This document shows, one piece after another, positions 1,040 to 29,556 of a stretch of 64,000 nt of DNA. The stretch is from an uncultured virus (IMG/VR IMGVR_UViG_3300021371_000010) (Duplodnaviria > Heunggongvirae > Uroviricota > Caudoviricetes): positions 1 through 64,000 of the IMG/VR virus record IMGVR_UViG_3300021371_000010. The stretch is one strand, 5' to 3'. The translations under genes and the position numbers were made by a program. The notes under the pieces were generated by a model that worked only from the letters and a program-made list of their open reading frames with translations, ran no database searches and had not been told where the DNA came from. The first letter of the stretch is position 1. The number at the start of each line of letters is the position of its first letter.

Positions 1040-1111
1040 TATGCAAGAAGTGATCGTGTGGTTTTCCCACGAGTAGTTTCCCATTTATTTGGATTATAGG
1101 AGGATAATTAA

Positions 1112-1612: not shown

Positions 1613-1628
1613 TTGATGGATTAATCAG

Positions 1629-5381: not shown

Positions 5382-5407
5382 TTTGTAAAAATCTTCATAG
5401 GCAATGT

Positions 5408-5415
5408 TATAAATA
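5408..5415 (+). promoter_or_regulatory. T4-type late promoter TATAAATA
   Basis: Exact consensus upstream of gp8. The gp55 late sigma factor is encoded in the window. Confidence 0.8.
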
Positions 5416-5458
5416 GTTTAATAAATACTTAACTGAGGAGTTAATCGAGGAACAAAAA

Positions 5459-12900: not shown

Positions 12901-13751
12901 ACAATCTAACAAGTTCAACTTATAGTTTTGCAAGTACATATGGTGCTACAGAATCTACAATTGGCGGTGGTGATCAAGTAGTCGCAACTAGAAACTTATA
13001 CTATGATGCATTGCATACTATGATACCATCAACACAAGTTGCTGGTACACAAATCTTTGCAAGTGTCAATAGAACGGGTATGGGTTCACCAGAAGATTCA
13101 AACTTAGACACAGCATACAGCAGAAGAACATCAAGTAACTTTATCAAACTAAATGATAACGTGTACTTTGAAAGACCAAGTGTTATTGCTTCAGTTGTAA
13201 ATGAAGAAAACAACATGGGTAATACTAAGTCATTCAATTGTTTACTACAGTTGAGATCAGTAAATCCAAACGTATCACCAGTAATTGATATTGGTACAAT
13301 TGGTTGCTTAGGTATTATGAATAGAATTAACGATATAAACGAATCGGGTGATGTATCAACAGGAGAAGTATTCGTACCGTCTACTGCACCTGATGGAGAC
13401 AACAACGCAATGGTTTATATCACAAGAAAGGTAACATTGAAAAATCCTGCAACTTCATTAAAAGTGATTGCAGATAACTTCAGACCACCTAATACTGATC
13501 TGAAGTTCATGTTTAAGATTATTAAACAGGACGAAACAACACCTATCGATGATATTGGATTTGAGTATTTCAATACATCAGGTGGTCCAGACGTAGATAC
13601 ACCGAAAGACGGAAGAAACTTTAAAGAGTATGAATATACTGCTGATGCTCTTCCAGAATTCAGTGCATTCGTAGTTAAGATAGTAGGACAATCAAGCAAT
13701 ACATCTCAAGTGCCATTAGTACAATCACTTAGATGTCTGGCGTTAGCATAA
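6993..13751 (+). CDS. Large virion structural protein, VrlC/DUF4815-like
   Basis: 2252 aa. N-terminus PYYDDY...KVLFRAGRPLQARELTQ.QSILQ.Q, plus APGADRLKI, RRTFDTSGDF and RYKSGFLVDNF motifs typical of this family in T4-like marine phages. Confidence 0.8.
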   Translation: MTEKTDLNITPYYDDYSEDKNFHKVLFRAGRPLQARELTQSQSILQDQIEKFGGHFFKEGSIVQGAEANIDMDVYYVKVQSSNPNVGNGDTSVEGYRESFHGKYIRGGSTGVVAKVITSIAETSTDSITLIVKAYSRGTDSKGSFIFVGDETLREVTIDGAGAVTNNEGNENFFKTVTDEDVPTGRSSIAQISQGTVYSRGFFVNVDQQVIILEKYSGAPSYRVGLQIKEELISSGADTTLLDNAQGTNNENAPGADRLKITMILKKIGIEEVTDTNFIELTRVNQGVIELHINRPIYSHIEHTMARRTFDTSGDFVTKQFLTTFREHLKEGDNKGFYTAGEGGDNSKFVCQISPGKAYVKGYEIEKIGTSNLELLKARTTASLTNTATPVRLGNKLKVNNVLALPEFQDDASTSTTAFKPIELYNQAQSSGAPAGEKIGFARVRHVDNDLNVSTQATDELNLYLFDIKMFTKLKFSANISASDYSVGDKVQTSSGASGIVGVIEHSTDSIYLHDVVGTFNDGDTVGARGLKSTSRTIDTDGVIVFNIAQAKSVYQATPGGGSQNFVANVVLDDFRTLSGFATLGAGGTSDATVTGVGTQFTRELVVGDTILDSTGTERLVKAITSDVAFTIDDVDGTSASGVSSQVQVNLVRKRSVLRDQDQTAAIFAWPRDYVSKVTPSDNGLQVRKQIRLTISNGDITIPCDTANEKFAIGNEDNFQFAVIEQSTNGSRTLTNGQVVYPNDISSFPTPGDANLVIPIGDQSSNQYDDGAKVLVSYSVVRKTPDIKNKSLIKSRSIYFEDKNSTNTARYGTAYDHKELSIGKSDVNKVWAVLEGVPGTLTNSHPTPPNATLNRTSGTFNSGEIIVGQTSGAKARLLTYNEGSTSYLLYIKEGVQFSTGEAVVGQTNTGVATIQSYDVGSPNIKSRYFLDNGQRDGYYDLAKLQLKEGEPTPNNPITIIFDHFEAGGGDYFARGSYNDSEIDYEDIPNYSPNKVDLGGFEPDGQFELSDAVDFRSHTDSLISVTAYDQTNVPNISNITTAPFAYDSRVFSSFDIATPTPGSTVDASLEFYVPRIDKVFLHKGGIFEVVSGYPDISPQKPQPIDDAIEMFEIFIPAYTDNLKELKVKARDYRRFTMKDIGRINQRVSNLERITSLSLLEKDTQSKQILDADGFDRYKSGFLVDNFRGHKIGDVSHLDYHVGIDTKMGQLRPQNYTQFFDIEHKSSASANFKKTGDLITLPYTEHTFVDQNKASRHLNVNPYHVFAFIGNVKLTPETDIWQDTETLPEVRINKEGNYDAVLAENQNSLGTVWNAWQTTWVGEPQVVSEETLASVPANWDGNPSQGGTGQSTATITREITETPETQTRNGVITSVVEEFVETRNDRIVSVQVIPFCRARTLEITATNLKPNTNHYILFDGITVNEYVRPFSTDYSQTTHTAASAGVKTDANGMLRAYFDLPNNRFQKFPTGQRELRITSSSNNLSNPDSYGVATYQAQGLLQSSQTEIVSTRNGRVVLERITDQREIMQRGERINVNVVQREPEPEPPQSPPPPPPPDPPQDPDPEPTPDPTPDPTPEPNPEPAPEPTPEPTPPPLEDPPPVDPPVVLPVDDVWRPVRDFPRERRFEARDWMDPLAESFLVESDGGMFLTSIDIYFKSKDNNLPCSVQIRNMVNGYPGQIILPFSNVTKNPGDINVSEDGSVATTFTFESPVYVEDRAEYCFVVYSNSNEYECYISRMGEPDIITGETISGQPYGGSLFKSQNASTWNAEQTDDLKFKMKVAKFDTSKVSSLIFENAQLPSQSLQDNPVQTFVGEQYVKVNHYSHGMYDSNSDVKIISVTGDKKNAIYKLSTASGSVTNVTAGTYTGLTQHVSSSTSGEGAVFNVVTTGTTGNETIARIEVTNPGHGYSTSDNIVINTTLDGDAVNISFGITTVGDTLGGIPITLINAEHKGITDYSIDTYNIDVDASLLDNNLTSSTYSFASTYGATESTIGGGDQVVATRNLYYDALHTMIPSTQVAGTQIFASVNRTGMGSPEDSNLDTAYSRRTSSNFIKLNDNVYFERPSVIASVVNEENNMGNTKSFNCLLQLRSVNPNVSPVIDIGTIGCLGIMNRINDINESGDVSTGEVFVPSTAPDGDNNAMVYITRKVTLKNPATSLKVIADNFRPPNTDLKFMFKIIKQDETTPIDDIGFEYFNTSGGPDVDTPKDGRNFKEYEYTADALPEFSAFVVKIVGQSSNTSQVPLVQSLRCLALA
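11610..11813 (+). repeat. Pro-rich low-complexity coding repeat (EP/DP/TP)n inside the VrlC-like protein
   Basis: Translates as EPEPEPPQSPPPPPPPDPPQDPDPEPTPDPTPDPTPEPNPEPAPEPTPEPTPPP. Confidence 0.9.
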
Positions 13752-13966
13752 TGACTATCAAAGTTGACGGTCATTCACATCTAATACGTGATGAAGAATC
13801 ACATGCTATTGTTAATACAGATAACGAAGCATATAGATTAACATTACGTAGAAGAAGTATTGTAACTGCTCAGAGGAACGAGATAAATACATTAAAGAAT
13901 GAAGTAAGTGAAATTAAAACATTATTAAAACAAGTTATAGAGAACGTAAATGGCAAAAACAGTTGA
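13751..13966 (+). CDS. Small conserved hypothetical protein with a coiled-coil C-terminus
   Basis: ATG overlaps the upstream stop (TAATG). KVDGH..L.RD..S.AIVNTD motif followed by a heptad-like helix. Confidence 0.7.
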   Translation: MTIKVDGHSHLIRDEESHAIVNTDNEAYRLTLRRRSIVTAQRNEINTLKNEVSEIKTLLKQVIENVNGKNS

Positions 13967-15941
13967 CAATTACAGCACAATAGAAGACTTCAGAAGAACG
14001 TACAACGAACTTGCAGTTGACGTTGGTGATATTCGTGGTTTAAGAACTACAAATCAAGCAACACTTACAGATGCAGTAAACAGTATCGAAGATAAATCAT
14101 TCTTCTTCCAAGAATTTGTGTATACTTCAGATGATACAGATGCAAACGATGGATCTGGTCCATACAATTTCTTTGGAGCAGATATCTTTGCTAACGTCTT
14201 AAAGTATAAGAAAGATAGGGTACAAGTATTTGTTAATGGGGTTCACTTGAGTGAAGGTATTGACTATACTGTTACGGGTCTTCAAGCAGATGCTACTTAC
14301 AATCAAATACAAATTTCAAACACTTCACCATCTTTTGGATCAGGTCTAACAGACGGTGATAGATTAACAGTTTACTCATATACAGGATCGTATCTTGGTG
14401 TAGCAGTTCAAAATACTGGCGCCCAGTTCTTCTTGCTTGATGAGACACAAACAATTTACAATAACAATGCTAACGGTCTCATATTCAATGGTAGTAACAG
14501 TAATCTTGTAACTACATTGCAATCTGGTTTCACAATTCAAAATGAAGGTAATACTTTAGTAAATGGTGAACTTACAGTTGATACAGGACATACACTAACA
14601 GCACCTACAATTACAGACGGAATTGCAACACTATCAAGTGGTTCAATCACAAATGGTGTGAATGGTACTTTCTCAGGTACTATTCAAGCAGAGCATCTCT
14701 ATACAACAGACGATTTACAAGTTGGTGATGATGCAACAATTAGTGGAGATTTGACAGTTAATGGTGCCGTAACCTTAAACGGTAGTACAATTACTCTAGG
14801 TAATCATGCAGATGATAATGTCGTATTTAATGCAGACGTAAACACAGATATCAAACCAAATCAAACTGGTCTCGATCTTGGTTCAAGTACTCAGAAGTGG
14901 GACAACTTATATGTAACAGAAGTTCAAGGTAATATCGATGGTAACGTTTACAGTGGTAGTACTCTTGTTCTGAATAATACTACTGCTCACCTAACAGGAA
15001 CAGTATCAGATATTTCAAATCACGATACAGATGATTTAACAGAAGGTTCAAGTAACTTATACTTCACTACTGCAAGAGCAAGAGAATCTATCAGTGAAAA
15101 CTCAACTCAGTTAGCATACGATAATTCAACTGGTGTATTAACATATACACAGGGCAACACTGATACTGTAGCAGAAGGAACATCTAATCTTTATTATACA
15201 AATGCTAGAGCAGATGAAAGAGTTGCTTTAGAAACAGGTGTTAATTTAGATTTATCAAATCAAGATACAGATGAACTAGCAGAAGGAAGTTCAAATCTAT
15301 ATTATACAAATACTAGAGCAGATGGTAGAATTGCATTACAAGTCGGTGCTAATCTAGATTTATCAAGCAAGTCTACAACTAATTTATCTGAAGGTACAAA
15401 CTTATATTACACAAATACTAGAGTAGATAATAGAATTGCCAGTGCTAGTATTGGTGATTTAGATGACGTATCTATCTCTAGCATTACGGCAGGTCAAGCA
15501 CTAACATGGTCAGATTCAGCAAATGATGGTAACGGTGGATTTACACCAACAACACTAGGTAGTAGTACAGATAGTTTTGCAGAGGGTTCAAATAACCTAT
15601 ACTTTACAAATGAGAGAGCAATGGACGCCGCCGCATCGATGATTACAACTGCTACTCACAGTAATATAACAGTAAGTTATGATGACGATGCAAATACATT
15701 GGCATTTAGTGCGGCCGCACAATATGGTGACTCAGATGTCGAGGCACATATTTCAGAAGGACCTGGTATTGATCTAGACACTTCTGGTTCAACTTTAGAA
15801 ATTTCTGCTTCGGCGCAGAAAGGGGTAAAAATATCAAGTACCCATGTAGAATTAGATTATGAAGTAGTATCGGCCTCTGGACTTTCAGGAACACCATCAG
15901 GAACAGGAAAACCAGAAGGACATCTATGGTTTGTGATATGA
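13950..15941 (+). CDS. Fibre protein 1 with EGxxNLY(F/Y)T repeats
   Basis: 663 aa with repeated TDxLxEGSSNLYYTxxR units. The C-terminus PSGTGKPEGHLWFVI resembles the fibre-tip motif of 24264-26129. Confidence 0.7.
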   Translation: MAKTVDNYSTIEDFRRTYNELAVDVGDIRGLRTTNQATLTDAVNSIEDKSFFFQEFVYTSDDTDANDGSGPYNFFGADIFANVLKYKKDRVQVFVNGVHLSEGIDYTVTGLQADATYNQIQISNTSPSFGSGLTDGDRLTVYSYTGSYLGVAVQNTGAQFFLLDETQTIYNNNANGLIFNGSNSNLVTTLQSGFTIQNEGNTLVNGELTVDTGHTLTAPTITDGIATLSSGSITNGVNGTFSGTIQAEHLYTTDDLQVGDDATISGDLTVNGAVTLNGSTITLGNHADDNVVFNADVNTDIKPNQTGLDLGSSTQKWDNLYVTEVQGNIDGNVYSGSTLVLNNTTAHLTGTVSDISNHDTDDLTEGSSNLYFTTARARESISENSTQLAYDNSTGVLTYTQGNTDTVAEGTSNLYYTNARADERVALETGVNLDLSNQDTDELAEGSSNLYYTNTRADGRIALQVGANLDLSSKSTTNLSEGTNLYYTNTRVDNRIASASIGDLDDVSISSITAGQALTWSDSANDGNGGFTPTTLGSSTDSFAEGSNNLYFTNERAMDAAASMITTATHSNITVSYDDDANTLAFSAAAQYGDSDVEAHISEGPGIDLDTSGSTLEISASAQKGVKISSTHVELDYEVVSASGLSGTPSGTGKPEGHLWFVI

Positions 15942-15942
15942 T

Positions 15943-17574
15943 ATGTCAGATAAAATATATGTAAAGCATCAACTTGCAGGCGGTAGTTTTCAGCAACCGT
16001 ATAACTATCAGGTTCCAACACCTCTTAGAACTCCTGCAATTAAAAACCAAACTTATCGTCACCCGACAATAACGCAGGTCCCTCAGACCTATATTGCAAC
16101 TGGGAGAACAACTGCTAGGTATCCTTTCACATATCCATTTACAACGCAAGGAACTACTCAACAACCTAACACGTATAATATACAAACTTCAGCACAGGGT
16201 AACACGAGAGGTAATACTCGAATTTCTGCTCAAGAAACAACACCTGCTATTGGTAACTCTAGAGTTATTGGTAACACTAGGGCACCAATCGATGCACAGG
16301 GTACAACGATTACACGATACCCATATATTCAACCATTGATCGGGAATACTCAAGCAAACGCACAGCAACCAAATACGTATTCTTATCAATCACCGTTTAC
16401 ATATGATATTCAATCACCAACACAATATAGTATACAAACTTCTGTAAATGCACAGTCGCCCTCAATTGTTGATTATTCATATCAAACATCGTTACAGCAA
16501 CCTACAATTACACGTTATCCATTTACATATGAATACAATGTGCAAAATGCTACTCAAGGAAGTACTCGATACCCATTTACTTATCCGTTTACTGGGAGTT
16601 CTACAACACCAGTAATTAAAGTAGACAATTATAATATCGATGATCAAATTCATATACCAGATGAAACTGGTACTGGTACTTCAAGTAATAACCCTATGGT
16701 TTCAACTTTGACAGCAACTACTTTGTTGAGTACTCCTCAAACAAGAGGTGATGCAATTTACTTTAGACTTAGAAGAGTACTACCAACTACATCGGGTTAT
16801 ACATCTTCTAATGATTATCTAGTTCTCGAAGCAGTAAAAGATAGTGCCCAACATACTAAAACTGGTATAAGTGTATCAGTTGCTAACAGAGAAACATCTG
16901 GACCTCCAACTGGTCATACAGGAACAACTGTTATACAGAATTATAGTTCAACAGCAACGAATAATAATTATGTAGAAATAGCAAGATTCGGTTGTCCTGT
17001 AAGTGAAGGAGTGGTTTCTGAATTTGAAATTACATTAACACCAGACGCCACTACTACATTTAATACAACAGTGGGATCATTGTCAAATTCTGCTATTTCT
17101 GGTTGTTCTATATCTTTTGATACTACAACAAACTCAAATGGTTTCACTACTTATGCTTTTTCTAATTCAAATACTTCACATTATAATGACTGCTTAAATG
17201 CAAAAATATATGGAAGTTCTTTGATTTCTCCAAACTCTCAGGGATTTGGTATATTAACAACATACACATCAACGGGTACTGCTAGTTCGAGTTCATATAC
17301 AGTAAGGAATTATAGAGGTATTGATATATTAGTGAAACTTAAAAAGACGGGTAGGGGAACCCATACTACTCAGTATCCAATGAAACTAAATTTCATATAC
17401 TTAGCAAGTCATATTACTGGCGGCGGAGGCGGCGGAGGCGGTGGATTCCCATCACCATTCCCAAGTACTCCAAGTTTCCCAACGTTTGATCCGTTTAGTG
17501 ATCCATTCCACCCGTTCAACTTACCTCTTGTTCAGCAGTCAGTAGAACCTCTGGAGCAACGACTAGCAGGGTAA
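15943..17574 (+). CDS. Mirror-repeat filament protein C: repeat stalk, putative globular tip domain, Gly/Pro/Phe tail
   Basis: N-terminal IYVK, ~200 aa of QQPNTY/RYPFTY/GNT repeats, a non-repetitive Ser/Thr-rich domain, then GGGGGGGGFPSPFP. Confidence 0.65.
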   Translation: MSDKIYVKHQLAGGSFQQPYNYQVPTPLRTPAIKNQTYRHPTITQVPQTYIATGRTTARYPFTYPFTTQGTTQQPNTYNIQTSAQGNTRGNTRISAQETTPAIGNSRVIGNTRAPIDAQGTTITRYPYIQPLIGNTQANAQQPNTYSYQSPFTYDIQSPTQYSIQTSVNAQSPSIVDYSYQTSLQQPTITRYPFTYEYNVQNATQGSTRYPFTYPFTGSSTTPVIKVDNYNIDDQIHIPDETGTGTSSNNPMVSTLTATTLLSTPQTRGDAIYFRLRRVLPTTSGYTSSNDYLVLEAVKDSAQHTKTGISVSVANRETSGPPTGHTGTTVIQNYSSTATNNNYVEIARFGCPVSEGVVSEFEITLTPDATTTFNTTVGSLSNSAISGCSISFDTTTNSNGFTTYAFSNSNTSHYNDCLNAKIYGSSLISPNSQGFGILTTYTSTGTASSSSYTVRNYRGIDILVKLKKTGRGTHTTQYPMKLNFIYLASHITGGGGGGGGGFPSPFPSTPSFPTFDPFSDPFHPFNLPLVQQSVEPLEQRLAG

Positions 17575-17576
17575 TC

Positions 17577-18386
17577 ATGGCGCAATTTCAATCACAATGG
17601 ACACAACCTTACTCAGTACAGAGTCCCTTTATATATCAGGGACAAGGGAGCACTAGAGGAACAACACGATATACTTTTCAGTCACCTTCAACTGCTCAGG
17701 GTAACACAAGGGGAACTACAGACACTCCAAGTCCATATCGTCAACCAAATATTGGGTCAACAGATGCACAAAATACTGTAATTGTACAGCAACCAAGTCG
17801 AGGAACTACACAAACACCTTCAATTGGAAACACAAGAGCAACAGTACAGGGACAAACAAGGTCACCATACAGATCGCCATTTACGTATGCGTATCAAGTA
17901 GATGCTAGAGGAAATACTGAGACTAGATATCCGTTTACTTTTCAATCACCGTTTACGTATCAGAATCCTATAACATACGATTTTCAGTATCAGTCGCCAT
18001 ATAGATCACCTGCTAGATATCCCTTTACGTACCCGTTTAGAGTACCATCGATTGGGAATACTAGATCGCCGTTTACGTATGAAATTCAAAATACAGGTAA
18101 CACACGTGGTACTACACAAGTGCCTTATATATTTCAAGGCAACAGTAGAGTACCATATAATTTACAGACTGTTTCACCTACTACATACACTGTTAGATCA
18201 CCTAGCATTGTACAGTCACCAGCAATTGGCACAAGACCAATTGGTCCTGTAGCAGAAGTTAAAGCAGTATATTTTAAAGATTCTGATGGTGTAGTAAAGA
18301 AATTAGAAAAAGGATATGTAAAAGATTCTCAAGGGACTGTAAGAAAAATACATACTGGCATCCCATTTGCCCAACTAAGCAATTAA
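17577..18386 (+). CDS. Mirror-repeat filament protein D (partner of 15943-17574)
   Basis: ~220 aa of RSPFTY/GNT repeats followed by a C-terminal VYFKD..GVVKK...GYVKD..G beta-rich domain. Confidence 0.65.
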   Translation: MAQFQSQWTQPYSVQSPFIYQGQGSTRGTTRYTFQSPSTAQGNTRGTTDTPSPYRQPNIGSTDAQNTVIVQQPSRGTTQTPSIGNTRATVQGQTRSPYRSPFTYAYQVDARGNTETRYPFTFQSPFTYQNPITYDFQYQSPYRSPARYPFTYPFRVPSIGNTRSPFTYEIQNTGNTRGTTQVPYIFQGNSRVPYNLQTVSPTTYTVRSPSIVQSPAIGTRPIGPVAEVKAVYFKDSDGVVKKLEKGYVKDSQGTVRKIHTGIPFAQLSN

Positions 18387-18391
18387 AAACA

Positions 18392-18399
18392 TATAAATA
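18392..18399 (+). promoter_or_regulatory. Late promoter TATAAATA, 6 nt before the ATG
   Basis: Sequence reads TATAAATAGTTACTATG. Confidence 0.8.
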
Positions 18400-18405
18400 G
18401 TTACT

Positions 18406-18741
18406 ATGGCAATCATAGCAAATATATACATCGATCAAGGCACAGATTTCAGCATTACAGTAGATGTTACTAATGCCGATGGCACAGCATTAAATCTAAG
18501 TGGTTATACTGCGGCCGCACAAATGAGAAAGACATATACTTCTTCGGCAGTTAGTGCATCTTTTGGAACAACAATAATTGAAGCATCAGGACAAGTAACA
18601 CTATCTTTGACTGATTCACAAACAAGTGCATTATCGCCAGGTAGATATTTGTATGATCTCAATATCACATCTTCAGGTGGAAATACGAGTAGAGTTGTTG
18701 AAGGACAAGCAATCGTTACACCGGGTGTAACGAGGAGTTAA
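18406..18741 (+). CDS. Conserved virion protein (Ig-like/adaptor type)
   Basis: NIYIDQGTDF...LNLSGYT..AQMRK...GRYLYD...RVVEG...VTPGVT pattern, common in T4-like fibre regions. Confidence 0.7.
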   Translation: MAIIANIYIDQGTDFSITVDVTNADGTALNLSGYTAAAQMRKTYTSSAVSASFGTTIIEASGQVTLSLTDSQTSALSPGRYLYDLNITSSGGNTSRVVEGQAIVTPGVTRS

Positions 18742-18743
18742 AT

Positions 18744-18986
18744 ATGGCAATTAAAGGCGTAGTAGGAAGAGTTGCAGGGATTTCTGGTAAAGTTCAGGGT
18801 CAAGGTAACTTACGTGTAAAGCAGGTTGCAGTAGGTAATTCATCTACAAACGTGAATTTATCTGCAAAATCTATCAATGAATTAGCAGACGTTGATGCTA
18901 CAGAAACAGATAACGGATTACTTTCATACGATCAAGCATCAGATAAGTGGACTACAACCACGGTTCTTGACGGCGGAACATTCTAA
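18744..18986 (+). CDS. Small fibre-associated protein ending in LDGGTF
   Basis: 80 aa with LADVD...GLLSYD..SDKW and a C-terminal DGGTF. Has a GAGGAG RBS. Confidence 0.65.
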   Translation: MAIKGVVGRVAGISGKVQGQGNLRVKQVAVGNSSTNVNLSAKSINELADVDATETDNGLLSYDQASDKWTTTTVLDGGTF

Positions 18987-18996
18987 ATAACAATTA

Positions 18997-20019
18997 GTGA
19001 AACCTACATTATGGACACGTGATGAGTGGTCCCCTTTGCAAGAATGCATTTTAGGGACTGCAAAAGAGTTCAACCTCACGAAAGACATCTCACATTATGT
19101 CGTTGATTGGCATGATAGTTCTTGGTCTGATTATATTGAAGCAGATTTCGAATACATCACTAAAGACATTATTGCTGAAGCAGAAGCAGACTTAAACTAC
19201 TTTCAAACAGTGCTTAGGACTCACGGTGTTGTCGTCCATCGCCCGCAAACATCTTTGACATGTAATCAGATCAGTAATGGTATGTGGGAAACAGGCCAGA
19301 TGCAATTTTACAATGTCAGAGACATTGCTTTTGTTATCGACAATACCATTGTAGAGTCAGCAATGTCAGTTCGTACAAGGTATTTTGAACAGTATAGTAT
19401 ACAACATATCTTCAAACAAAAATTCTTAGAAGGTGCTAAATGGTTGTCTATGCCTAAACCAAAACTATCAGATGATCACTATTCATTAAATGTATTTCCA
19501 GATATACCAACGCATGAACCATTACTTGATGGTGCAAACATATTGAGAATGGGAGATGATTTATTAGTAAGCACAAATTTAACTGCTAATAAAATGGGTG
19601 TTGAATGGTTAAGAAGACATTTTCCTAATCATAGAATACATGAGATTGATCTCACACATAAAGTTACATCTCATATTGATACAACATTTACAGTATTAAA
19701 AGAAGGTGTAGTATTGATTAATGAAGAGAGAATTAAAGAAGATGAAGTTCCAGATCTTTTTAAAGATTGGACAAAAGTATTCATCACTAAAGACATTATA
19801 GCAGATGTGCAACCAAAAGTCAAGAGAGGAATCGCATCTAAATGGGTTGGTATGAATATGTTTTCTATAGATCCCAATAATGTTTGTGTAGATGCATCAC
19901 AAGAACGTCTTATGGAAGTGATATCACAATATGTAAATCCTATACCTATACCTATGAAGCATTCTAGAATTCTGGGTGGAGGATTACATTGTTGTACTTT
20001 AGACTTATTAAGAAATTAA
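18997..20019 (+). CDS. Amidinotransferase (glycine/inosamine-phosphate amidinotransferase family)
   Basis: EWSPLQECILG N-terminus, NVRD, LLDGAN (Asp), HIDTTF (His) and GGGLHCCTLD (catalytic Cys). GTG start 7 nt after TCTAAATA. Confidence 0.85.
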   Translation: MKPTLWTRDEWSPLQECILGTAKEFNLTKDISHYVVDWHDSSWSDYIEADFEYITKDIIAEAEADLNYFQTVLRTHGVVVHRPQTSLTCNQISNGMWETGQMQFYNVRDIAFVIDNTIVESAMSVRTRYFEQYSIQHIFKQKFLEGAKWLSMPKPKLSDDHYSLNVFPDIPTHEPLLDGANILRMGDDLLVSTNLTANKMGVEWLRRHFPNHRIHEIDLTHKVTSHIDTTFTVLKEGVVLINEERIKEDEVPDLFKDWTKVFITKDIIADVQPKVKRGIASKWVGMNMFSIDPNNVCVDASQERLMEVISQYVNPIPIPMKHSRILGGGLHCCTLDLLRN

Positions 20020-20170: not shown

Positions 20171-21739
20171 ATGGCAACAGTAATTCAGATTAAAAGAAGT
20201 ACAGGAGCAAGTGCGCCAGCAGTTAGTGATCTAGCAGAAGGCGAATTGGCGTATGTACAAGATAGATCGAATGATGGTGCTTCTGCTAAACTATTCATTG
20301 AGTCAGTAGATTCAGGATCTTCAGCAGTTATCCATGAAATCGGTGGTAAATACTACACGGACATCGTCGGTGGTAGTAAAGCAACTCCATCAGATTTCTT
20401 AGTTGGTAATGGTTCAACTTCAGGTGGTACTCTAAAACTTATCGAAGATTCCGATAACGGAACAAACTTCGTTGGTATTAAAGCACCAGACTCAGTTGGA
20501 TCTAACGTTACTTTTACAATGCCTTCAGCAGACGGCAGTGCTAACCAAGTATTAGGAACCAATGGTTCAGGACAACTATCATTCTTATCAACAACTTCAA
20601 CACTAGCAGGAGCAACAGACTCAGATATCAGTTCACCAGGTGCAGGACACATTCTTGTTCACGATGGTTCAGATTCATTTGACAACGTAGCACTTTCTGG
20701 TGATGTAACAATGACCTCTGCTGGTGTAGTAACCATCGGGTCAAACGCGGTACAAGTAGGAAACATTGATTTCTTAGTAGACGAAGATAACATGGCATCA
20801 GACTCAGCAGTTAAAGTGCCTTCACAGCAATCAGTCAAAGCATATGTTGATTCACAAGTAACAGCACAAGACTTAGACTTAGCAGGTGACAGTGGTACAG
20901 GTGCAGTTGATTTAGACTCACAATCAATCACTTTCACTGGTGGTACAGGGGTAACAACTTCTGTTTCTAACCAAGCAGTGTCCTTCGCAATTGGTCAATC
21001 AGTTGGAACAACAGACAACGTAACATTTAACAACGTTGAAGTTGACGGAACATTGACTTCAGATGATATCACATCTACAAACATCGCCGCTACAGGTAAC
21101 TTAACAGTTTCAGGAAACTTGACTGTTAATGGTACTACAACAACAGTAAACTCAACTACAGTATCAGTAGATGATCCAGTATTTGAATTGGGTGAAGGGG
21201 CATCAGATGACAACTTAGACAGAGGGATTAAATTCAACTGGCATAATGGTTCATCTGCTAAAGTTGGTTTCTTTGGTATGGACGACTCAGACGGGAAGTT
21301 CAAATTTATCCAAGATGCAACAGATACTTCATCAGTATTCTCAGGATCAGTTGGTAACGTAGCATTTGGTGGTATCGAAGGTACTTCACTTGCATTAAGT
21401 GGTTCAATCACTTCAGTTGACGGATCTGCCCCAACTGCTGGTCAATTAATGATCGGTAATGGATCAAATGGCGATCTAGAACTTGCAACATTGACTGCTG
21501 GTGAAGGTATTGACGTAGCAAACGCAGACGGAAGTATTACAATCAGTGCAGAGTCGGCAACAGCATCTAACTTAGGTGTTGCTTCATTCTCAGCATCATA
21601 CTTCACAGTTAGTTCTGGCGACGTTTCAATTAACGATGCTACAGCAAGTGCTAAAGGTATTGCATCATTCTCCAGTGATAACTTCACTGTATCAAGTGGT
21701 GCGGTAACTGTTACTGCTATCGACGGAGGTACATTCTAA
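20171..21739 (+). CDS. Tail-fibre-like protein (MATVIQIKRS N-terminal domain, C-terminal DGGTF)
   Basis: IQIKRS...L.EGELA N-terminus and GNLTVNGTTTTVNST...DRGI fibre motif. Rich in Gly, Ser and Thr. Confidence 0.75.
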   Translation: MATVIQIKRSTGASAPAVSDLAEGELAYVQDRSNDGASAKLFIESVDSGSSAVIHEIGGKYYTDIVGGSKATPSDFLVGNGSTSGGTLKLIEDSDNGTNFVGIKAPDSVGSNVTFTMPSADGSANQVLGTNGSGQLSFLSTTSTLAGATDSDISSPGAGHILVHDGSDSFDNVALSGDVTMTSAGVVTIGSNAVQVGNIDFLVDEDNMASDSAVKVPSQQSVKAYVDSQVTAQDLDLAGDSGTGAVDLDSQSITFTGGTGVTTSVSNQAVSFAIGQSVGTTDNVTFNNVEVDGTLTSDDITSTNIAATGNLTVSGNLTVNGTTTTVNSTTVSVDDPVFELGEGASDDNLDRGIKFNWHNGSSAKVGFFGMDDSDGKFKFIQDATDTSSVFSGSVGNVAFGGIEGTSLALSGSITSVDGSAPTAGQLMIGNGSNGDLELATLTAGEGIDVANADGSITISAESATASNLGVASFSASYFTVSSGDVSINDATASAKGIASFSSDNFTVSSGAVTVTAIDGGTF

Positions 21740-21787: not shown

Positions 21788-22615
21788 ATGGCAACAGTAA
21801 TTCAGTTTAAAAGAAGTTCTACTCAGAATGCAGTTCCCGGTACTGGTGATTTATCACTAGGGGAATTAGCAGTCAACACTTATCACGGTAGATTCTATAC
21901 TGAGAAAAACGATGGTTCAGCGGCAGTCGTTGAAGTGGGATCTAATCCCTCATCGTTAACTATCAATGATGCTATTACTTTCCCAACAAGTGATGGTTCT
22001 GCAAACCAGGTATTAAAAACAGATGGAAGTGGATCAGTTTCATTTTCAGATTTACCTAGTTCAGGAATCACAATTTATACCTACTCAATATCGAGTACTA
22101 CAACTTCAATAACAGGTGCAGACGACAGTAGCAATACTTTAGTTTATACTCCTGGTACTGAACAAGTATTCATAAACGGTGTTAAATTGGTAGATGGCGG
22201 TAACGATTATACTGCAACAAACACATCTACAATCACATTGGCAGAGAACGCCATTAGTGGTGATATAGTAGAAGTAGTCGCAATATCAGATGCAAGTAAT
22301 CTTGTTGAAGGATATTTCACTGCTAATACTTTCACTGCTACAACGGCAAATCAGGTACTTTCCAGTAATGGACTAGCAATTAAAGGCATCAAGTATGTCA
22401 TCAATGCTACCCACAGTACAGCAGGAACACACGCGGCCGAAGTGCTATTGATCAATGATGGAACAGATGCATTCTTTGTGCAATACGGTGACGTATACTC
22501 AGATGCATCTCTCTTCACATTATCAGCAGATGTAAATTCAGGTAATATGAGACTTCTCGTAACACCTGCAAATACTAACACAACCATTGACACATTTCAA
22601 ATAAGACATAGTTAA
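21788..22615 (+). CDS. Fibre-associated protein
   Basis: MATVIQFKRS...GELAVN N-terminus, paralogous to 20171. Has VFINGVKL...DY and a C-terminal domain shared with 22627 and 23101. Confidence 0.7.
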   Translation: MATVIQFKRSSTQNAVPGTGDLSLGELAVNTYHGRFYTEKNDGSAAVVEVGSNPSSLTINDAITFPTSDGSANQVLKTDGSGSVSFSDLPSSGITIYTYSISSTTTSITGADDSSNTLVYTPGTEQVFINGVKLVDGGNDYTATNTSTITLAENAISGDIVEVVAISDASNLVEGYFTANTFTATTANQVLSSNGLAIKGIKYVINATHSTAGTHAAEVLLINDGTDAFFVQYGDVYSDASLFTLSADVNSGNMRLLVTPANTNTTIDTFQIRHS

Positions 22616-22626
22616 GGAGTAAAGAC

Positions 22627-23037
22627 ATGGCAAAAACAAACGCATTTAAACTTGCTGAGTTAATCAGAGTCTTCCAATACGATTCTTCAAATGATGTCAT
22701 AACAACTTCAAAGAGAACAGAAGACAAGAACAAAAAGAGAGGTAATGCAACTAAGACTGCTACTGATCAATTTGCACTTGACACTTTTGCGAAAAACGAC
22801 TTTAGAGCGGCAAGATATATTATTGCTATGACTAAAGGTAGTGATTTTCATTCGACTGAAGTTATGTTAGTACACGACGGAAGCACTGTGACTCTTACTC
22901 AGTATGGGACATTAAAAGATAGTACGTTAGCAACAATTGATGCAGATATCTCAGGATCAAACGTGAGATTGTTAGTAACACCAGCAAGTGCTACATCAAC
23001 AACAATCAAGTTTGACAGGACATTAGTAGACGCATAA
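22627..23037 (+). CDS. Fibre-associated protein
   Basis: Carries the shared C-terminal domain FR.A.Y.I...EV...HDG...QYG...ADI...VRLLVTPA. Confidence 0.65.
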   Translation: MAKTNAFKLAELIRVFQYDSSNDVITTSKRTEDKNKKRGNATKTATDQFALDTFAKNDFRAARYIIAMTKGSDFHSTEVMLVHDGSTVTLTQYGTLKDSTLATIDADISGSNVRLLVTPASATSTTIKFDRTLVDA

Positions 23038-23057
23038 TTTTTTAACGATATATTATT

Positions 23058-23086
23058 AGGGGGACATAAAGTCCCCCTTTCTTTTT
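23058..23086 (+). terminator. Rho-independent terminator
   Basis: AGGGGGAC-ATAAA-GTCCCCCT stem-loop followed by TTCTTTTT. Confidence 0.85.
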
Positions 23087-23087
23087 G

Positions 23088-23095
23088 TATAAATA
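23088..23095 (+). promoter_or_regulatory. Late promoter TATAAATA, 5 nt before the ATG
   Basis: Exact consensus immediately after the terminator. Confidence 0.8.
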
Positions 23096-23100
23096 GTATT

Positions 23101-26156: not shown

Positions 26157-27914
26157 ATGGCGTCAGGCAATCAGAAAATAAAAACCCCTTCGGGTTGGAA
26201 TAGCACAAGAGGTGCTTGGGTAAAGACTGGTGGTACAACTTGGAAGTCAGTAGATCAAATCTATGTCAAGACTCCTACAGGTTGGAACGATGCATCTGGT
26301 CAAGAGAACGCACAGCAACCATATCCTTATATTGCCAATGCTCAAAATCCTGTTATAAGACAACAAGTACAACCATATCCGTACATTGCAAATGCTCAAA
26401 ATCCGGTTATAAGACAGCAAACGCAACCGTATCCTTACATTGCGAATGCACAGAATCCGTTCATACGTCAACAGACACAACCTTATCCTTATATTGCGAA
26501 TGCACAGAATCCATTTATAAGAAATAGACAAACGCCGTTTACGTATCAGTATCAGTCCCCAAGTACATATGCTACTCAAGGAAATACACAGGTACCTTAT
26601 GATCATCAATCACCATTTACTTACGAAACGCAAGGGTCGACAAGAGGTAATACTCAAACACCATTTACTTACCCATACATTCAACCACTGATCGGGAATA
26701 CTCAAGAGTCAAACTCGTATATACATCAGGTTGCAACTACTGGTAATACAAGATCACCATTTACATATGCATATCAAGTAGATGCTAGAGGCAATACACA
26801 AGAACCGAATATCTATAATTATCAAGTAACAACTACTGGTAATACAAGATCGCCGTTTACATACGCATACCAAGTTGATGCTAGAGGTAGTACACAAGAA
26901 CCGAATACTTACATCTATCAAGTATCAACTACTGGTCAGACAAGGTCACCATTTACTTACCCTTTCATTGCTAACGCAACAGGGAATACTCAGGAACCTA
27001 ATACATATTCATATGGTGTTCCTAATATTGGTAATACAAGATCACCATTTACATACGCATTCCAAGTAGATGCACAAGGTGTAACTGCTGGAGTTACTAG
27101 ATCACCATTTACATATGCATATCAAGTAGATGCTAGAGGAAGTACGCAACAACCTAATACATATAATATACAAACAGCAACGATTGGTCAGACAAGGTCA
27201 CCATTCACGTATGCATATCAAGTAGATGCTAGAGGAAGTACTCAGCAACCTAATACTTACATTTATCAAGTTACTACAACTGGTAATACAAGATCACCAT
27301 TCACGTATGCATATCAAGTAGATGCTAGAGGAAGTACTCAACAACCAAACACTTACCCATTTACTGTAAATGCTAATGGGTCAACTAGATCGCCATTTAC
27401 TTACCCTTATATCGCCAATGCTACTGGTAATACTAGATCACCATTTACGTACCCTTACATAGCAAACGCAACAGGGAATACTAGATCACCATTTAGATAC
27501 CCTTATATACAACCTTTAATTGGGAACACCACAGGAAATACTACGGGTAACACAAGAGTTAATGCACAGGAACCTAATACAACACCTACAACATATCCGT
27601 ATACAGTAAATGCTCAAGAACCAAACAGAACACCTACAACATATCCGTATACAGTAAATGCACAGCAACCAGTGCCATATCCGTTTACATACCCATACAC
27701 AGTAAACGCAACAGGGAATTCACGAAATCCATTTACATACCCGTATACAGTCAATGCAACAGGGAATTCAATCGGTAGTACAAGATCACCATACAGATTC
27801 CCATTTAGAACACCGACTAGAGTACCATGGAGAGTCACAGCACAGCAACCCAGTCAGGGAAGATTCCCATTCTTCTTTAGTCCAGGAGGAGGTTTACCAC
27901 AATTCTTAAAATAA
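26157..27914 (+). CDS. Mirror-repeat filament protein A
   Basis: N-terminal Trp-rich KTPSGW/WVKTGGTTWK/IYVKTPTGW domain, then ~530 aa of 16- and 18-aa repeats. Confidence 0.7.
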   Translation: MASGNQKIKTPSGWNSTRGAWVKTGGTTWKSVDQIYVKTPTGWNDASGQENAQQPYPYIANAQNPVIRQQVQPYPYIANAQNPVIRQQTQPYPYIANAQNPFIRQQTQPYPYIANAQNPFIRNRQTPFTYQYQSPSTYATQGNTQVPYDHQSPFTYETQGSTRGNTQTPFTYPYIQPLIGNTQESNSYIHQVATTGNTRSPFTYAYQVDARGNTQEPNIYNYQVTTTGNTRSPFTYAYQVDARGSTQEPNTYIYQVSTTGQTRSPFTYPFIANATGNTQEPNTYSYGVPNIGNTRSPFTYAFQVDAQGVTAGVTRSPFTYAYQVDARGSTQQPNTYNIQTATIGQTRSPFTYAYQVDARGSTQQPNTYIYQVTTTGNTRSPFTYAYQVDARGSTQQPNTYPFTVNANGSTRSPFTYPYIANATGNTRSPFTYPYIANATGNTRSPFRYPYIQPLIGNTTGNTTGNTRVNAQEPNTTPTTYPYTVNAQEPNRTPTTYPYTVNAQQPVPYPFTYPYTVNATGNSRNPFTYPYTVNATGNSIGSTRSPYRFPFRTPTRVPWRVTAQQPSQGRFPFFFSPGGGLPQFLK

Positions 27915-29490
27915 GAATTAAGGAAAAGTAATTATGGCACAAGGACCTTATCAATATAGAGCAACAGTTAGAAGTCCAACAGACTACCCTGTGTTTATCA
28001 ATGCACAAGGGAGTGCCCAACAACCGAATGGATATCCGTTCACTTACCCGTATATTGCTAACGCAACAGGGAACAGTAGACAACCATTCACTTACCCATA
28101 TATTGCTAACGCAACAGGGAGTACAATTGGTGCTACTAGATCCCCTTACATAGCAAACGCAACTGGTAATACAAGGGTACCATTTAGATCCCCTTACATA
28201 GCAAACGCAACTGGTAACACGATTGTACCATTTAGGTCGCCATATAGACAACCTACTACTTATCCATTTACTTATCCGTTTACATATGCGTATCAAGTAG
28301 ATGCTAGAGGTAGTACACAGCAACCTAATACTTACCCATTTACTGTAAATGCTACAGGGAGCACACAGCAACCTAACACTTACCCATTTACTGTAAATGC
28401 TACAGGGAATACTCAAGAACCAAATATTTACCCTTATATCGCCAATGCTACTGGTAATACTAGATCACCATTTAGATATCCGTATATTCAACCGTTAATC
28501 GGGAATACACAAGAACCAAATACGTATATCTTCCAAACAGCAACAATTGGTAATACTAGATCGCCGTTTAGATACCCATATATTCAACCTCTAATCGGGA
28601 ATACACAAGAACCTAATACTTACATATATCAGACACCAAGTATTGGTAACACTAGATCACCATTTAGATACCCTTACATTCAACCTCTAATCGGGAATAC
28701 ACAAGAGGCAAATCCGTATGCATTTAGATATCCGTATATTCAACCACTAATTGGGAATACGCAAGAACCTAACACATACTCATTCCAAGTTACAACTATT
28801 GGTAATACTAGATCGCCTTTCACTTACCCATATACAGTGAATGCTACAGGGAATACTCAGGAACCAAATACGTATATCTATCAAACAGCAACGATTGGTA
28901 ACACTAGATCGCCGTTTAGATACCCATATATACAACCTCTGATTGGGAATACACAAGAACCTAACACATATATTTTCCAGTCACCAGCATCTGGTAGCAC
29001 AAGATCGCCGTTTAGATATCCGTTTATTCAACCGTTGATCGGGTCTACTCAAGAACCTAATACTTACATATATCAAGTTTCTACACCAGGTATAACTAGA
29101 TCGCCATTTACATATGCGTATCAAGTAGATGCAACAGGTAACACTAGACAACCTAACAGATATCCATTTACATATCCGTACATTGCAACTGGTCAGCAAC
29201 CTAATATTAGACAGCAGACACAACCGTATCCTTATATTGCTAACGCAGTGAATCCGTTCATTAGAGATGCTAGACAACCAGCAACATATAATCACAGATC
29301 ACCTAGCACTTACGCAACTCAAGGGAATACACAAGTGCCATATAATCATAGATCCCCAAGTACATATGCTACTCAAGGAAATACTCAAGTGCCTTATAAC
29401 CATAGATCCCCAAGTACATATGCTACTCAAGGAACTACAAGGGTACCATACAGTCATAGATCCCCAAGTACATATGCAAGACAGGGTAGA
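26313..29490 (+). repeat. Coding tandem repeats (48-nt and 54-nt units) across genes A and B
   Basis: Units encode QPYPYIANAQNPxIR, NTRSPFTYAYQVDARG, NTRSPFRYPYIQPLIG and SPSTYATQGNTQVPYNHR. Variation is mostly at synonymous positions. Confidence 0.9.
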
Positions 29491-29556
29491 AATCCTGTGA
29501 TCAGATGGGATGGAGACTTAGATAACCAATGGCCAGGTTCTCCAATTACGTCATAA
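27934..29556 (+). CDS. Mirror-repeat filament protein B (partner of 26157-27914)
   Basis: 540 aa made almost entirely of repeats, with an AAGGA RBS. Starts MAQ, like 17577. Confidence 0.7.
   Translation: MAQGPYQYRATVRSPTDYPVFINAQGSAQQPNGYPFTYPYIANATGNSRQPFTYPYIANATGSTIGATRSPYIANATGNTRVPFRSPYIANATGNTIVPFRSPYRQPTTYPFTYPFTYAYQVDARGSTQQPNTYPFTVNATGSTQQPNTYPFTVNATGNTQEPNIYPYIANATGNTRSPFRYPYIQPLIGNTQEPNTYIFQTATIGNTRSPFRYPYIQPLIGNTQEPNTYIYQTPSIGNTRSPFRYPYIQPLIGNTQEANPYAFRYPYIQPLIGNTQEPNTYSFQVTTIGNTRSPFTYPYTVNATGNTQEPNTYIYQTATIGNTRSPFRYPYIQPLIGNTQEPNTYIFQSPASGSTRSPFRYPFIQPLIGSTQEPNTYIYQVSTPGITRSPFTYAYQVDATGNTRQPNRYPFTYPYIATGQQPNIRQQTQPYPYIANAVNPFIRDARQPATYNHRSPSTYATQGNTQVPYNHRSPSTYATQGNTQVPYNHRSPSTYATQGTTRVPYSHRSPSTYARQGRNPVIRWDGDLDNQWPGSPITS

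What the first reader, a model, noticed from the sequence alone, without database searches (positions are those of the whole stretch)
15943..18386. A second, divergent gene pair obeys the same mirror code and carries a putative tip domain
SEEN: protein C ITRY-PYIQ-PLIG-NTQA-NAQQ-PNTY-SYQS-PFTY-DIQS-PTQY faces reversed protein D DARG-AYQV-PFTY-PYRS-QTRS-TVQG-NTRA-PSIG-TTQT-PSRG. Further on, C ATQG-STRY-PFTY-PFTG faces D TTRY-STRG-QGQG-PFIY, and earlier C SAQG-NTRG faces D PFTY-PARY. Even 2-aa offsets (PI/PF, NS/QN, TT/DF) fall in register over ~200 residues, although this pair is much less repetitive. After the paired segment, C continues into a ~270-aa non-repetitive domain (~16610-17415). INFERRED: a shorter stalk (up to ~65 nm) presenting a distal receptor-binding or lectin-like domain. 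This replicates the code within one genome.
Basis: partly seen in the sequence, partly recalled or inferred. Interest (0 to 1): 0.9.

Follow-up and report, generated by a model that had tools for sequence, protein, structure and literature searches.

The report
Two-chain antiparallel beta-ribbon phage fibre
Two neighbouring genes of an uncultured marine T4-like phage encode proteins whose residues match one another, one by one and in opposite directions, over about 220 positions, which points to a very long two-chain beta-ribbon stalk with a variable domain at its far end, a fibre design not described before.

Summary
At one ungapped antiparallel register, C(i)+D(j)=238, 25 of 25 stalk glycines face Tyr/Phe/Trp; the best other offset gives 17, the best parallel one 12, and shuffles 11-12. 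Prolines face Gln/Arg.

Both proteins keep a strict two-residue period: Y, G and F sit only at even positions, P only at odd ones.

A contact matrix learned from pair A-B alone scores C-D at 177 bits at that register and at most 5 bits elsewhere. Cross-pairs C-B and A-D score at most 5.

The same rule holds in other phages: 21 of 30 C-D-type pairs and 37 of 45 A-B-type pairs. Partner stalk lengths co-vary (r=0.99). Single-chain fused relatives fold back on themselves by the same rule.

Best reading: a split giant beta-hairpin, a two-stranded antiparallel ribbon about 70 nm long. It has a conserved base and a hypervariable tip domain on C.

No Pfam, PHROG, PDB or literature match was found. AlphaFold2 gave no usable model. 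The tip's function is untested.

The parts
15943..17574 (+). Gene C (543 aa): N-terminal clasp strand, paired stalk, tip domain, Gly9 run and Pro/Phe-rich tail
   Evidence: ORF. No Pfam or PHROG family and no PDB relative.
15943..15987 (+). C residues 1-15. SDKIYV (2-7) faces D 236-231 (SDKFYV read backwards). This N-terminus is conserved in relatives.
   Evidence: Alignment at i+j=238. M1 and I5 are invariant and S2 and D3 nearly so in 15 C-like sequences. Fused forms start MSDEIYIN.
15988..16614 (+). C stalk (residues about 16-224). Strict two-residue period; pairs antiparallel with D 222-14.
   Evidence: Y 20, G 10 and F 7 are all at even positions; P 21 are all at odd positions. Register 238.
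16615..17418 (+). C tip domain (residues about 225-492). Non-repetitive and placed at the closed end of the pair; an orphan sequence.
   Evidence: Only a self-hit in 1.84e9 representatives. Not similar to the tips of other loci. AlphaFold2 pLDDT 40.2 with mostly strands.
17419..17571 (+). C residues 493-543: nine Gly, then a Pro/Phe-rich tail. In some relatives a Hint/intein-type domain follows such a Gly run.
   Evidence: Sequence. Relatives P0080 and P0092.
17577..18386 (+). Gene D (269 aa). It starts 2 nt after C's stop codon.
   Evidence: ORF. 10 relatives and 42 IMG/VR loci. No Pfam, PHROG or PDB match.
17577..18242 (+). D stalk (residues 1-222), partner strand of the C stalk
   Evidence: Y 18, G 15 and F 12 are all at even positions; P 25 are all at odd positions. 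Register 238.
18243..18383 (+). D C-terminal domain (residues 223-269). This is the most conserved part of the family and is the presumed base or attachment end.
   Evidence: Invariant columns cluster here in alignments A1 and A3.
18406..18986 (+). Two small genes (111 aa, LtfC-like beta-sandwich; 80 aa) that always follow D
   Evidence: Found 9-26 bp (111 aa) and about 350 bp (80 aa) after the D-like gene in all but one (L038) of the 40 loci with a called D-like ORF; both genes are present in 42 of 42 loci. phrog_3304 'L-shaped tail fiber protein assembly' E 7.5e-25.
13950..15941 (+). Upstream fibre-like protein (663 aa, ends GHLWFVI), conserved neighbour of C
   Evidence: phrog_697. A relative is present in 39 of 42 loci, mostly directly upstream of the C-like or fused gene.
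26157..27914 (+). Gene A (585 aa), first chain of the longer pair
   Evidence: Register A(i)+B(j)=574 gives 58 aromatic-Gly pairs.
27934..29556 (+). Gene B (540 aa), partner of A
   Evidence: 306 relatives.

Best explanation
C and D are the two halves of a split giant beta-hairpin.

Proposed structure:
- C residues about 16-224 and D residues about 222-14 run side by side in opposite directions. They form one continuous two-stranded antiparallel beta-ribbon, about 70 nm long if fully extended.
- Even positions form the pairs that hydrogen-bond across the ribbon. Their side chains share one face: Tyr or Phe lies over the partner's Gly or Ala, and Phe faces Thr.
- Odd positions form the non-bonded pairs on the other face: Pro faces Gln or Arg, Asn faces Thr, Asp faces Ile.
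- Pro occurs only at positions whose NH points away from the partner. It therefore costs no hydrogen bond and blocks sideways aggregation.

The two ends:
- Open end: the conserved D C-terminal domain clasped by the C N-terminal strand. This is the presumed attachment to the virion.
- Closed end: C's variable domain of about 270 aa, the presumed host-binding tip.

What is shown and what is inferred:
- Shown by sequence statistics: the unique antiparallel register, the shared pairing rule, its specificity for the cognate partner, and the fused single-chain relatives.
- Inferred: the beta-ribbon geometry, which face is hydrogen-bonded, the number of copies per fibre, the place on the virion, and the tip's function.
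For: 1. Strict parity over 206 and 222 residues with no slip: Y, G and F only at even positions, P only at odd ones.
2. At i+j=238, 25 of 25 Gly face an aromatic residue. The next offset gives 17, the best parallel 12, and 0 of 2000 shuffles reach 25.
3. The same pair table holds in C-D and A-B: G:Y, A:Y and F:T at even positions; P:Q, P:R, N:T and D:I at odd positions.
4. Out-of-sample matrices:
 - Trained on A-B only: C-D scores 177 bits at 238, next 3, parallel 5; C-B 5, A-D 3, C-C 9, D-D 8.
 - Trained on 11 pairs from other phages: C-D scores 156 bits, next 4.
 - Trained on 37 A-B-type pairs from other phages: C-D again peaks at 238, with 54 bits, next 6.
5. Among 15 pairs, the cognate partner is the unique best in 11 of 15 rows and 13 of 15 columns. 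The exceptions are close relatives of each other.
6. 21 of 30 distinct C-D-type locus pairs and 37 of 45 A-B-type pairs have one strong antiparallel register. For the A-B-type pairs the matrix was trained only on C-D-type pairs, and scores were at least 240 bits with the next offset mostly 5.
7. Stalk lengths of partners co-vary: r=0.993, n=37, B length 248-542 aa. The register is anchored at lenB+34 in 31 of 37 pairs.
8. Six of 6 natural fused single-chain forms pair their N-half with their reversed C-half at 50-167 bits. Shuffles give 14-18 (maximum 25) and parallel gives 12-15.
9. Facing double substitutions keep the rule (P:Q to I:N, G:F to S:S, Q:E to D:I). L029/L033 shows 12 where 5.6 are expected.
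10. The genes lie in the structural module between the baseplate-wedge and neck genes, with conserved neighbours.
Against: - No structure exists. AlphaFold2 gave no confident model of the tip or of a fused relative, so the ribbon geometry rests on sequence logic alone.
- A free two-stranded ribbon of 200-500 residues has no solved precedent that I know of (recalled).
- Nine of 30 C-D-type locus pairs gave no signal. Six are fused or mis-assigned loci and one has a truncated upstream gene, but L001 and L020 are genuine weak cases. L001 scores 42 against 24-28 by counts; L020 shows none.
- With the matrix from other phages' A-B-type pairs, C-D reaches only 54 bits. The rule therefore has dialects.
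- The excess of double substitutions could partly come from one recombination tract spanning the end of C, the tip and the start of D.
- No evidence that the proteins are in the virion.
Confidence: 0.7

Rival explanations
1. Periodicity artefact. Both proteins are low-complexity repeats, so any reversed alignment in the right phase gives the G/Y match and there is no specific pairing.
For: A and B are strongly 16/32-periodic. For A-B, many other offsets also score high by simple counts (45-55 against 58).
Against: C and D have no dominant long period, yet one offset captures 25 of 25 Gly. Shuffles that keep 2- to 16-residue blocks reach at most 18. With log-odds matrices every other offset, every parallel alignment and every cross-pair scores at most 9 bits, against 156-177.
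Confidence: 0.02
2. Each protein folds on its own into a repetitive beta fibre (a beta-solenoid with coils of about 16 residues, or a trimeric triple beta-spiral). The two rods then lie side by side antiparallel, so the match reflects rod-to-rod contacts rather than strand-to-strand pairing.
For: The 16-residue period with conserved Pro and Gly in A and B resembles solenoid and beta-spiral repeats (the resemblance is recalled). Known phage fibres are parallel homotrimers (abstract of PMC12143355, seen in the listing).
Against: Nearly every position of both parities takes part in the match (about 0.7-1.4 bits per residue), not one face per coil. C and D have no constant coil length, and insertions are always even and are mirrored in the partner. 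Self-pairing scores are negligible. Pro at every second to fourth odd position fits badly inside a multi-stranded sheet (inference).
Confidence: 0.12
3. The antiparallel C-D ribbon is real but is only the building block. Several ribbons, for example three, pack face to face through the Tyr/Phe face into a thicker fibre that matches the three- or six-fold symmetry of the tail.
For: The even face is aromatic and aliphatic. Phage fibres usually sit on three-fold or six-fold sites (recalled). The 16-residue period of A-B could match the helical period of a twisted ribbon (inference).
Against: C-D has no long period that would allow regular bundling. C-C and D-D show no complementarity by this rule, though face-to-face packing would follow another rule.
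Confidence: 0.3
4. The match is a by-product at the nucleic-acid level: an inverted repeat or long-range RNA duplex between the two genes, or sense-antisense codon relations.
For: Two of the pair types (P:R and D:I) are sense-antisense codon pairs (genetic code). For A-B, codon complementarity at the register is slightly raised: 0.89 against 0.73 +/- 0.05.
Against: There are no long inverted repeats between C and D: the longest is 32 nt at 78%, outside the stalk register. For C-D, codon complementarity is 0.81 against 0.75 +/- 0.05 at other offsets. The main pairs (G:Y, P:Q, N:T, F:T, A:Y) are not antisense pairs.
Confidence: 0.01
5. The domain at the closed end of C is not a receptor-binding tip. 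It is instead a folding nucleus or clasp that brings the two strands into register, or an enzyme.
For: Fused relatives have only a small insert of about 110 residues at the turn. A-B has no tip domain at all. Some relatives carry a self-processing Hint domain at this place.
Against: Extreme variability of the tip between otherwise related loci is typical of host-recognition parts. The conserved end is the opposite one.
Confidence: 0.2

Closest known systems
Beta-hairpins and two-stranded antiparallel beta-ribbons with aromatic-glycine cross-strand pairs ('aromatic rescue of glycine', recalled from Merkel and Regan 1998; not read here)
   Same: Antiparallel i+j=constant pairing, two-residue alternation, and Tyr or Phe directly opposite Gly.
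   Different: Known examples span about 5-20 residues within one chain. Here the span is 200-520 residues, usually split over two polypeptides, with a second rule (Pro opposite Gln/Arg) on the other face.
Heterodimeric coiled-coil pairing rules (for example Fos-Jun type a/d/e/g positions; recalled)
   Same: A periodic residue code that sets partner choice and register between two long chains.
   Different: That system is alpha-helical with a seven-residue period and is mostly parallel. This one has a two-residue period and beta-type alternation, and it is strictly antiparallel.
Triple beta-spiral shafts of adenovirus fibre and reovirus sigma1 (recalled)
   Same: A viral fibre shaft with a repeat of about 15-16 residues, alternating hydrophobic residues and conserved Pro/Gly (A and B only).
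   Different: Those are parallel homotrimers with hairpin-like repeats. Here there is antiparallel hetero-complementarity at every residue, C and D have no fixed repeat length, and there is no sequence or profile match.
Thin single-layer beta rods of bacterial surface proteins (SasG/Aap G5-E repeats, OspA central sheet; recalled)
   Same: Long, thin, Thr-rich beta structures without a conventional hydrophobic core.
   Different: Those are built from short strands of one chain meandering in domains. Here two uninterrupted strands would run the whole length.
Modular phage receptor-binding fibres (conserved virion-proximal end, exchangeable distal tip; some with self-cleaving C-terminal chaperone domains, as in T5 pb1: PMC4690869, abstract seen in the listing)
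   Same: Conserved base and hypervariable distal domain, a position among baseplate and fibre genes, and in some relatives a C-terminal self-processing domain (Hint) after a Gly run.
   Different: The stalk is not a recognisable trimeric fibre fold. The distal tip sits at the turn of a hairpin topology, so both chain ends of the pair are at the base.
Two-protein 'chain-like' fibres of podophages A1002, GP4 and VP1 (PMC13730344, passages read)
   Same: A fibre built from more than one gene product, with beta-strand augmentation.
   Different: That design is a rope protein carrying a series of globular dimers. It is not two complementary strands paired along their whole length.

Membership tests
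Triple beta-spiral fibre shaft (adenovirus fibre, reovirus sigma1) | Pseudo-repeat of constant length, about 15-16 residues | tested here: not met
   C and D show no dominant period; identity is raised at all even lags from 4 to 36. A and B do show a 16/32 period.
Triple beta-spiral fibre shaft (adenovirus fibre, reovirus sigma1) | Sequence or profile similarity to known members | tested here: not met
   No Pfam family for C or D. No PDB sequence match at E up to 1.
Triple beta-spiral fibre shaft (adenovirus fibre, reovirus sigma1) | Parallel homotrimer | not testable with these tools
   Only indirect evidence: all complementarity is antiparallel and between different chains.
Annotated phage tail-fibre families (Pfam, PHROGs) | Match to a family profile | tested here: not met
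   0 Pfam and 0 PHROG families for C, D and B. For A the only hit is Rhodopsin_N, below the cut-off, and I treat it as chance. No tblastn match for C, D, A or P0002 in 50,697 GenBank phage records, with the low-complexity filter on.
Beta-solenoid with 16-residue coils (ice-nucleation-protein type; recalled) | Constant coil length with stacking of i on i+16 | tested here: not met
   C and D have no 16-residue peak above the other even lags. The feature is met only in parts of A and B.
Collagen-like or polyproline-II bundles | Three-residue period (Gly-X-Y or similar) | tested here: not met
   Identity at lag 3 is at background (0.03-0.06). The period is 2, and Gly falls at even positions only.
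Hint/intein-type self-processing domain at the chain end | Pfam Hint-superfamily match after a Gly run followed by Cys | tested here: not met
   Absent from the window's C and A. Present in relatives: P0041 Intein_splicing 41.9 bits (cut-off 35.8), P0092 Hom_end_hint 38.2 (32.1), P0096 Vint 29.3 (27). Found in 11 of 45 A-like proteins.
Proposed new family: paired antiparallel ribbon proteins of marine T4-like phages | Strict two-residue parity plus one ungapped antiparallel register with the neighbouring gene's product | tested here: met
   for C-D. 21 of 30 and 37 of 45 pairs in other phages.

The most novel reading that the evidence does not exclude
A natural, residue-by-residue pairing code for beta-strands, the beta counterpart of the coiled-coil heptad code. 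Tyr/Phe faces Gly/Ala, Phe faces Thr, Pro faces Gln/Arg, Asn faces Thr, Asp faces Ile. The code lets abundant marine phages build two-chain (or single-chain hairpin) ribbons of 70 to 180 nm. Length, register and partner choice are written in the sequence. Both chain ends sit at the virion, and an exchangeable host-binding domain, or a self-cleaving Hint domain, sits at the turn.
Probability: 0.55. Interest if true: 0.95.

Novelty: categorically new. Interest (0 to 1): 0.88.

Why it matters
If the ribbon model holds, this is a new principle of fibrous protein architecture, with strands running along the fibre axis for hundreds of residues and paired by a readable code. It is also a new kind of phage fibre that is not a parallel homotrimer.

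The family is common in uncultured marine T4-like phages: 194 A-type relatives in IMG/VR and 306 or more relatives of B. Pfam, PHROGs, PDB searches and AlphaFold2 all miss it.

The code would allow three things:
- Partner and register could be predicted from sequence.
- The length diversity of these fibres could be explained.
- Extended beta-ribbon heterodimers could be designed from a template.

It also marks the tip domains as candidates for host recognition in phages whose hosts are unknown.

Tried and rejected
- Complex prediction on C(1-245) with D, using alignments A2 and A3: no verdict. The score was 0.03 and the partner's fold was uncertain. This is no evidence either way.
- AlphaFold2 on the C tip with a 15-row alignment gave mean pLDDT 40.2. 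On a natural fused relative (L037, 6 rows) it gave pLDDT 31.6 with almost no secondary structure. Both models are unusable, so no fold search was run.
- ESM Atlas on the tip: no usable hit.
- HMMER of the tip against 1.84 billion representatives: only itself.
- Profile or sequence search against PDB sequences: 0 hits at E up to 1.
- GenBank phage collection: megablast of 15000-19000 and tblastn with C, D, A and P0002 found no match. BLAST's low-complexity filter may hide stalk matches.
- The search for related loci with C alone or with P0002 alone found nothing. The alignment queries worked.
The right residue register is 238.
- Ungapped self-pairing of fused forms was weak. A gapped alignment was needed.
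- The nucleic-acid inverted-repeat explanation was rejected.
- Six literature searches found no description of such proteins. PMC13730344 (passages) describes a different two-protein fibre.
Full report
**Setting**

The window is part of an incomplete virus record of 71,925 bases (40% complete by the record's estimate). Its genes are those of a T4-like myovirus:
- baseplate wedge subunits at 113-6949;
- neck proteins from 34947;
- terminase, sheath, tube, portal, protease, scaffold and major head protein from 38869 to 48412.

The scaffold protein is about 42% identical to those of marine cyanomyoviruses and of uncultured 'marine virus' records. The host is unknown.

Gene C (15943..17574, 543 aa) and gene D (17577..18386, 269 aa) lie in the fibre region between the baseplate and neck genes. 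The longer pair A (26157..27914, 585 aa) and B (27934..29556, 540 aa) lies there too. None of the four has a Pfam or PHROG family.

Both stalks obey a strict two-residue period with no slip:
- In C15-220: 20 Tyr, 10 Gly and 7 Phe are all at even positions, and all 21 Pro are at odd positions.
- In D1-222: 18 Tyr, 15 Gly and 12 Phe are at even positions, and 25 Pro at odd positions.
- A and B behave the same way over about 520 residues each.

C and D have no dominant longer period, whereas A and B repeat every 16/32 residues.

- At this single ungapped antiparallel register, all 25 glycines of the two stalks face Tyr, Phe or Trp, with no aromatic-aromatic or Gly-Gly pairs.
- The next offset gives 17 and the best parallel offset 12.
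- Shuffling D in blocks of 2 to 16 residues gives a maximum over all offsets of 11-12 +/- 1. It never exceeds 18, and 0 of 2000 shuffles reach 25.
- On the other parity, 38 facing pairs are Pro opposite Gln or Arg.
- The pair tables of C-D and A-B (register 574, 58 aromatic-Gly pairs) are alike: G:Y, A:Y and F:T at even positions; P:Q, P:R, N:T and D:I at odd positions.

**It is one code, specific for the cognate partner**

A log-odds contact matrix trained only on A-B scores C-D at 177 bits at 238. Every other antiparallel offset scores at most 3 bits and every parallel one at most 5. The controls score C-B 5, A-D 3, C-C 9 and D-D 8.

A matrix trained on 11 pairs from other phages gives C-D 156 bits (next 4) and A-B 479 bits.

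In a 15 x 15 table of upstream against downstream proteins, the cognate partner is the unique best in 11 rows and 13 columns. The exceptions are two sets of close relatives.

**Relatives**

D has 10 relatives in the 5.8-billion protein set. An alignment query found 42 IMG/VR loci.
- In 36 of the 40 loci with a called D-like ORF, a large ORF (108-545 aa) ends just upstream. Thirty locus pairs are distinct.
- With a matrix trained only on 37 A-B-type pairs of other phages, 21 of these 30 pairs show one strong antiparallel register. It is anchored 30-39 residues before the end of the D-like protein, whatever its length (230-370 aa).
- The nine failures are five fused-gene loci, one mis-assigned locus, one locus with a truncated upstream gene, and two genuine weak cases (L001, L020).
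- With this matrix the window's C-D again peaks at 238, but with only 54 bits (next 6). The rule therefore has dialects.

For the A-B type, 194 relatives exist in IMG/VR.
- Of the 80 loci kept, my script found 45 distinct A-like/downstream pairs. Eighteen loci were dropped for lack of a recognisable A-like ORF or downstream ORF, and the rest were duplicates.
- With a matrix trained only on C-D-type pairs, 37 of 45 score at least 240 bits and 40 of 45 at least 100 bits. The next offset is mostly 5 bits and parallel is at most 8.
- The five failures have a downstream ORF of only 95-98 aa.
- Partner stalk lengths co-vary: r=0.993, n=37, B from 248 to 542 aa. The register equals lenB+34 in 31 of 37.

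**Fused forms**

Six natural single-chain relatives (466-531 aa) begin like C (MSDEIYIN...) and end with the D-type C-terminal domain. Under the code learned from split pairs, their N-halves align with their reversed C-halves at 50-167 bits. Shuffles give 14-18 (maximum 25) and parallel gives 12-15. The family is thus a giant hairpin, and in the window it is split into two genes after the tip.

**Topology**

The register places C's N-terminus (SDKIYV) against D 236-231 (SDKFYV in reverse) at one end, next to D's conserved C-terminal domain.

C's non-repetitive residues about 225-492 fall at the other, closed end, opposite D's N-terminus. That tip has no relative except itself among 1.84 billion representatives. 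It is unrelated to the tips of other loci by phmmer. MAFFT finds only a shared final strand-Gly-run pattern.

Conserved base plus hypervariable tip is the usual layout of receptor-binding fibres. The function itself is not shown.

Two small genes always follow D: a 111-aa LtfC-like protein (phrog_3304) and an 80-aa protein, in 42 of 42 loci. A fibre-like protein ending GHLWFVI usually precedes C.

**Mechanism (inferred)**

A constant i+j over 200-500 residues, together with a strict two-residue period, is what a two-stranded antiparallel beta-ribbon predicts.
- In such a ribbon, alternate residues form hydrogen-bonded and non-bonded cross-strand pairs, and each class has its side chains on one face (textbook geometry).
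- Pro confined to one parity in both chains fits the non-bonded class, where its missing NH costs nothing and blocks sideways sheet growth.
- Tyr or Phe over Gly or Ala on the other face is the known 'aromatic rescue' pairing (recalled).
- At about 0.33 nm per residue, C-D would span about 70 nm and A-B about 170 nm.

Whether ribbons bundle further is open.

**Alternatives**

- Chance or periodicity is excluded.
- A DNA or RNA inverted repeat is excluded. No long inverted repeat exists between the genes, and codon complementarity at the register is 0.81 against 0.75 +/- 0.05 elsewhere.
- Independent solenoid or beta-spiral rods lying side by side fit poorly. Nearly all positions take part in the match, and C-D has no fixed coil length.

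Facing double substitutions between close relatives exceed expectation (12 against 5.6 for L029/L033) and keep the rule (P:Q to I:N, G:F to S:S, Q:E to D:I). Part of the excess could come from one recombination tract.

**Known or new**

No match was found in Pfam, PHROGs, PDB sequences, GenBank phages or the ESM Atlas. Relatives carry no source names. Six full-text searches found no description. The two-protein chain-like fibre of phage A1002 is a different design.

Structure prediction gave nothing usable.

I rate the observation confirmed. The antiparallel pairing is very likely, the ribbon geometry probable, and the tip function plausible but untested.

Noticed in passing
Relatives P0033, P0036, P0041, P0096 (A-like) and P0080, P0092 (C-like); loci L052, L081, L087, L091, L096, L098, L102, L107, L114, L119, L120: In 11 of 45 A-like proteins, and in some C-like ones, a Hint/intein-type self-processing domain follows a poly-Gly run and a Cys. 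It begins 42-52 residues beyond the partner's length, which is exactly at the hairpin turn. The window's A and C lack it but keep a Gly run. Partner N-termini start MP.. or MA.. without Cys, so simple self-cleavage seems more likely than ligation.
   Followed up: partly
window 18406-18986: A 111-aa LtfC-like beta-sandwich protein (phrog_3304, 'L-shaped tail fiber protein assembly') and an 80-aa protein are present in 42 of 42 related loci and directly follow the D-like gene in 39 of the 40 with a called D-like ORF. They may be a chaperone or an adaptor of this fibre.
   Followed up: partly
window 26157-29556: A's order of repeat types is mirrored in B: QPYPYIANAQNP.IR units, then SPSTYATQGNTQVPY units, then 32-residue units, then PFTYPYIANATGN units. 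A's N-terminal WVKT/YVKT..GWN domain pairs with B's C-terminal RWDGD..WPGSPITS. This pair has no tip domain.
   Followed up: partly
window 6993-13751: A 2252-aa structural protein (DUF4815, phrog_358) with a Pro/Glu/Asp-rich linker of about 70 residues (PEPEPPQSPPPPPPPDPPQDPDPEPTPDP...).
   Followed up: no
window 13950-15941, 20171-21739, 24264-26129: Three fibre-like proteins share repeated 'SEGSSNLY(F/H)T..AR' motifs (phrog_697). The first ends GHLWFVI and is the conserved upstream neighbour of C.
   Followed up: partly
window 21788-23928: Three neighbouring small proteins (275, 136 and 275 aa) share a C-terminal pattern (..V.L(L/R)(V/I)TPA..(N/T)(S/T)T(I/T)..F..). They look like paralogous fibre-tip or adaptor modules.
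   Followed up: no
window 26216-26609, 27877-28416, 28981-29295, 16094-16339: Long ORFs in other frames and on the minus strand inside the repeat genes are by-products of the repetitive coding sequence, not genes.
   Followed up: no
window 31765-34631 and 49961-50641: Several 2OG-Fe(II) oxygenase-type genes sit just after the fibre module, together with a 526-aa protein (phrog_28018). This is typical accessory content of marine T4-like phages.
   Followed up: no
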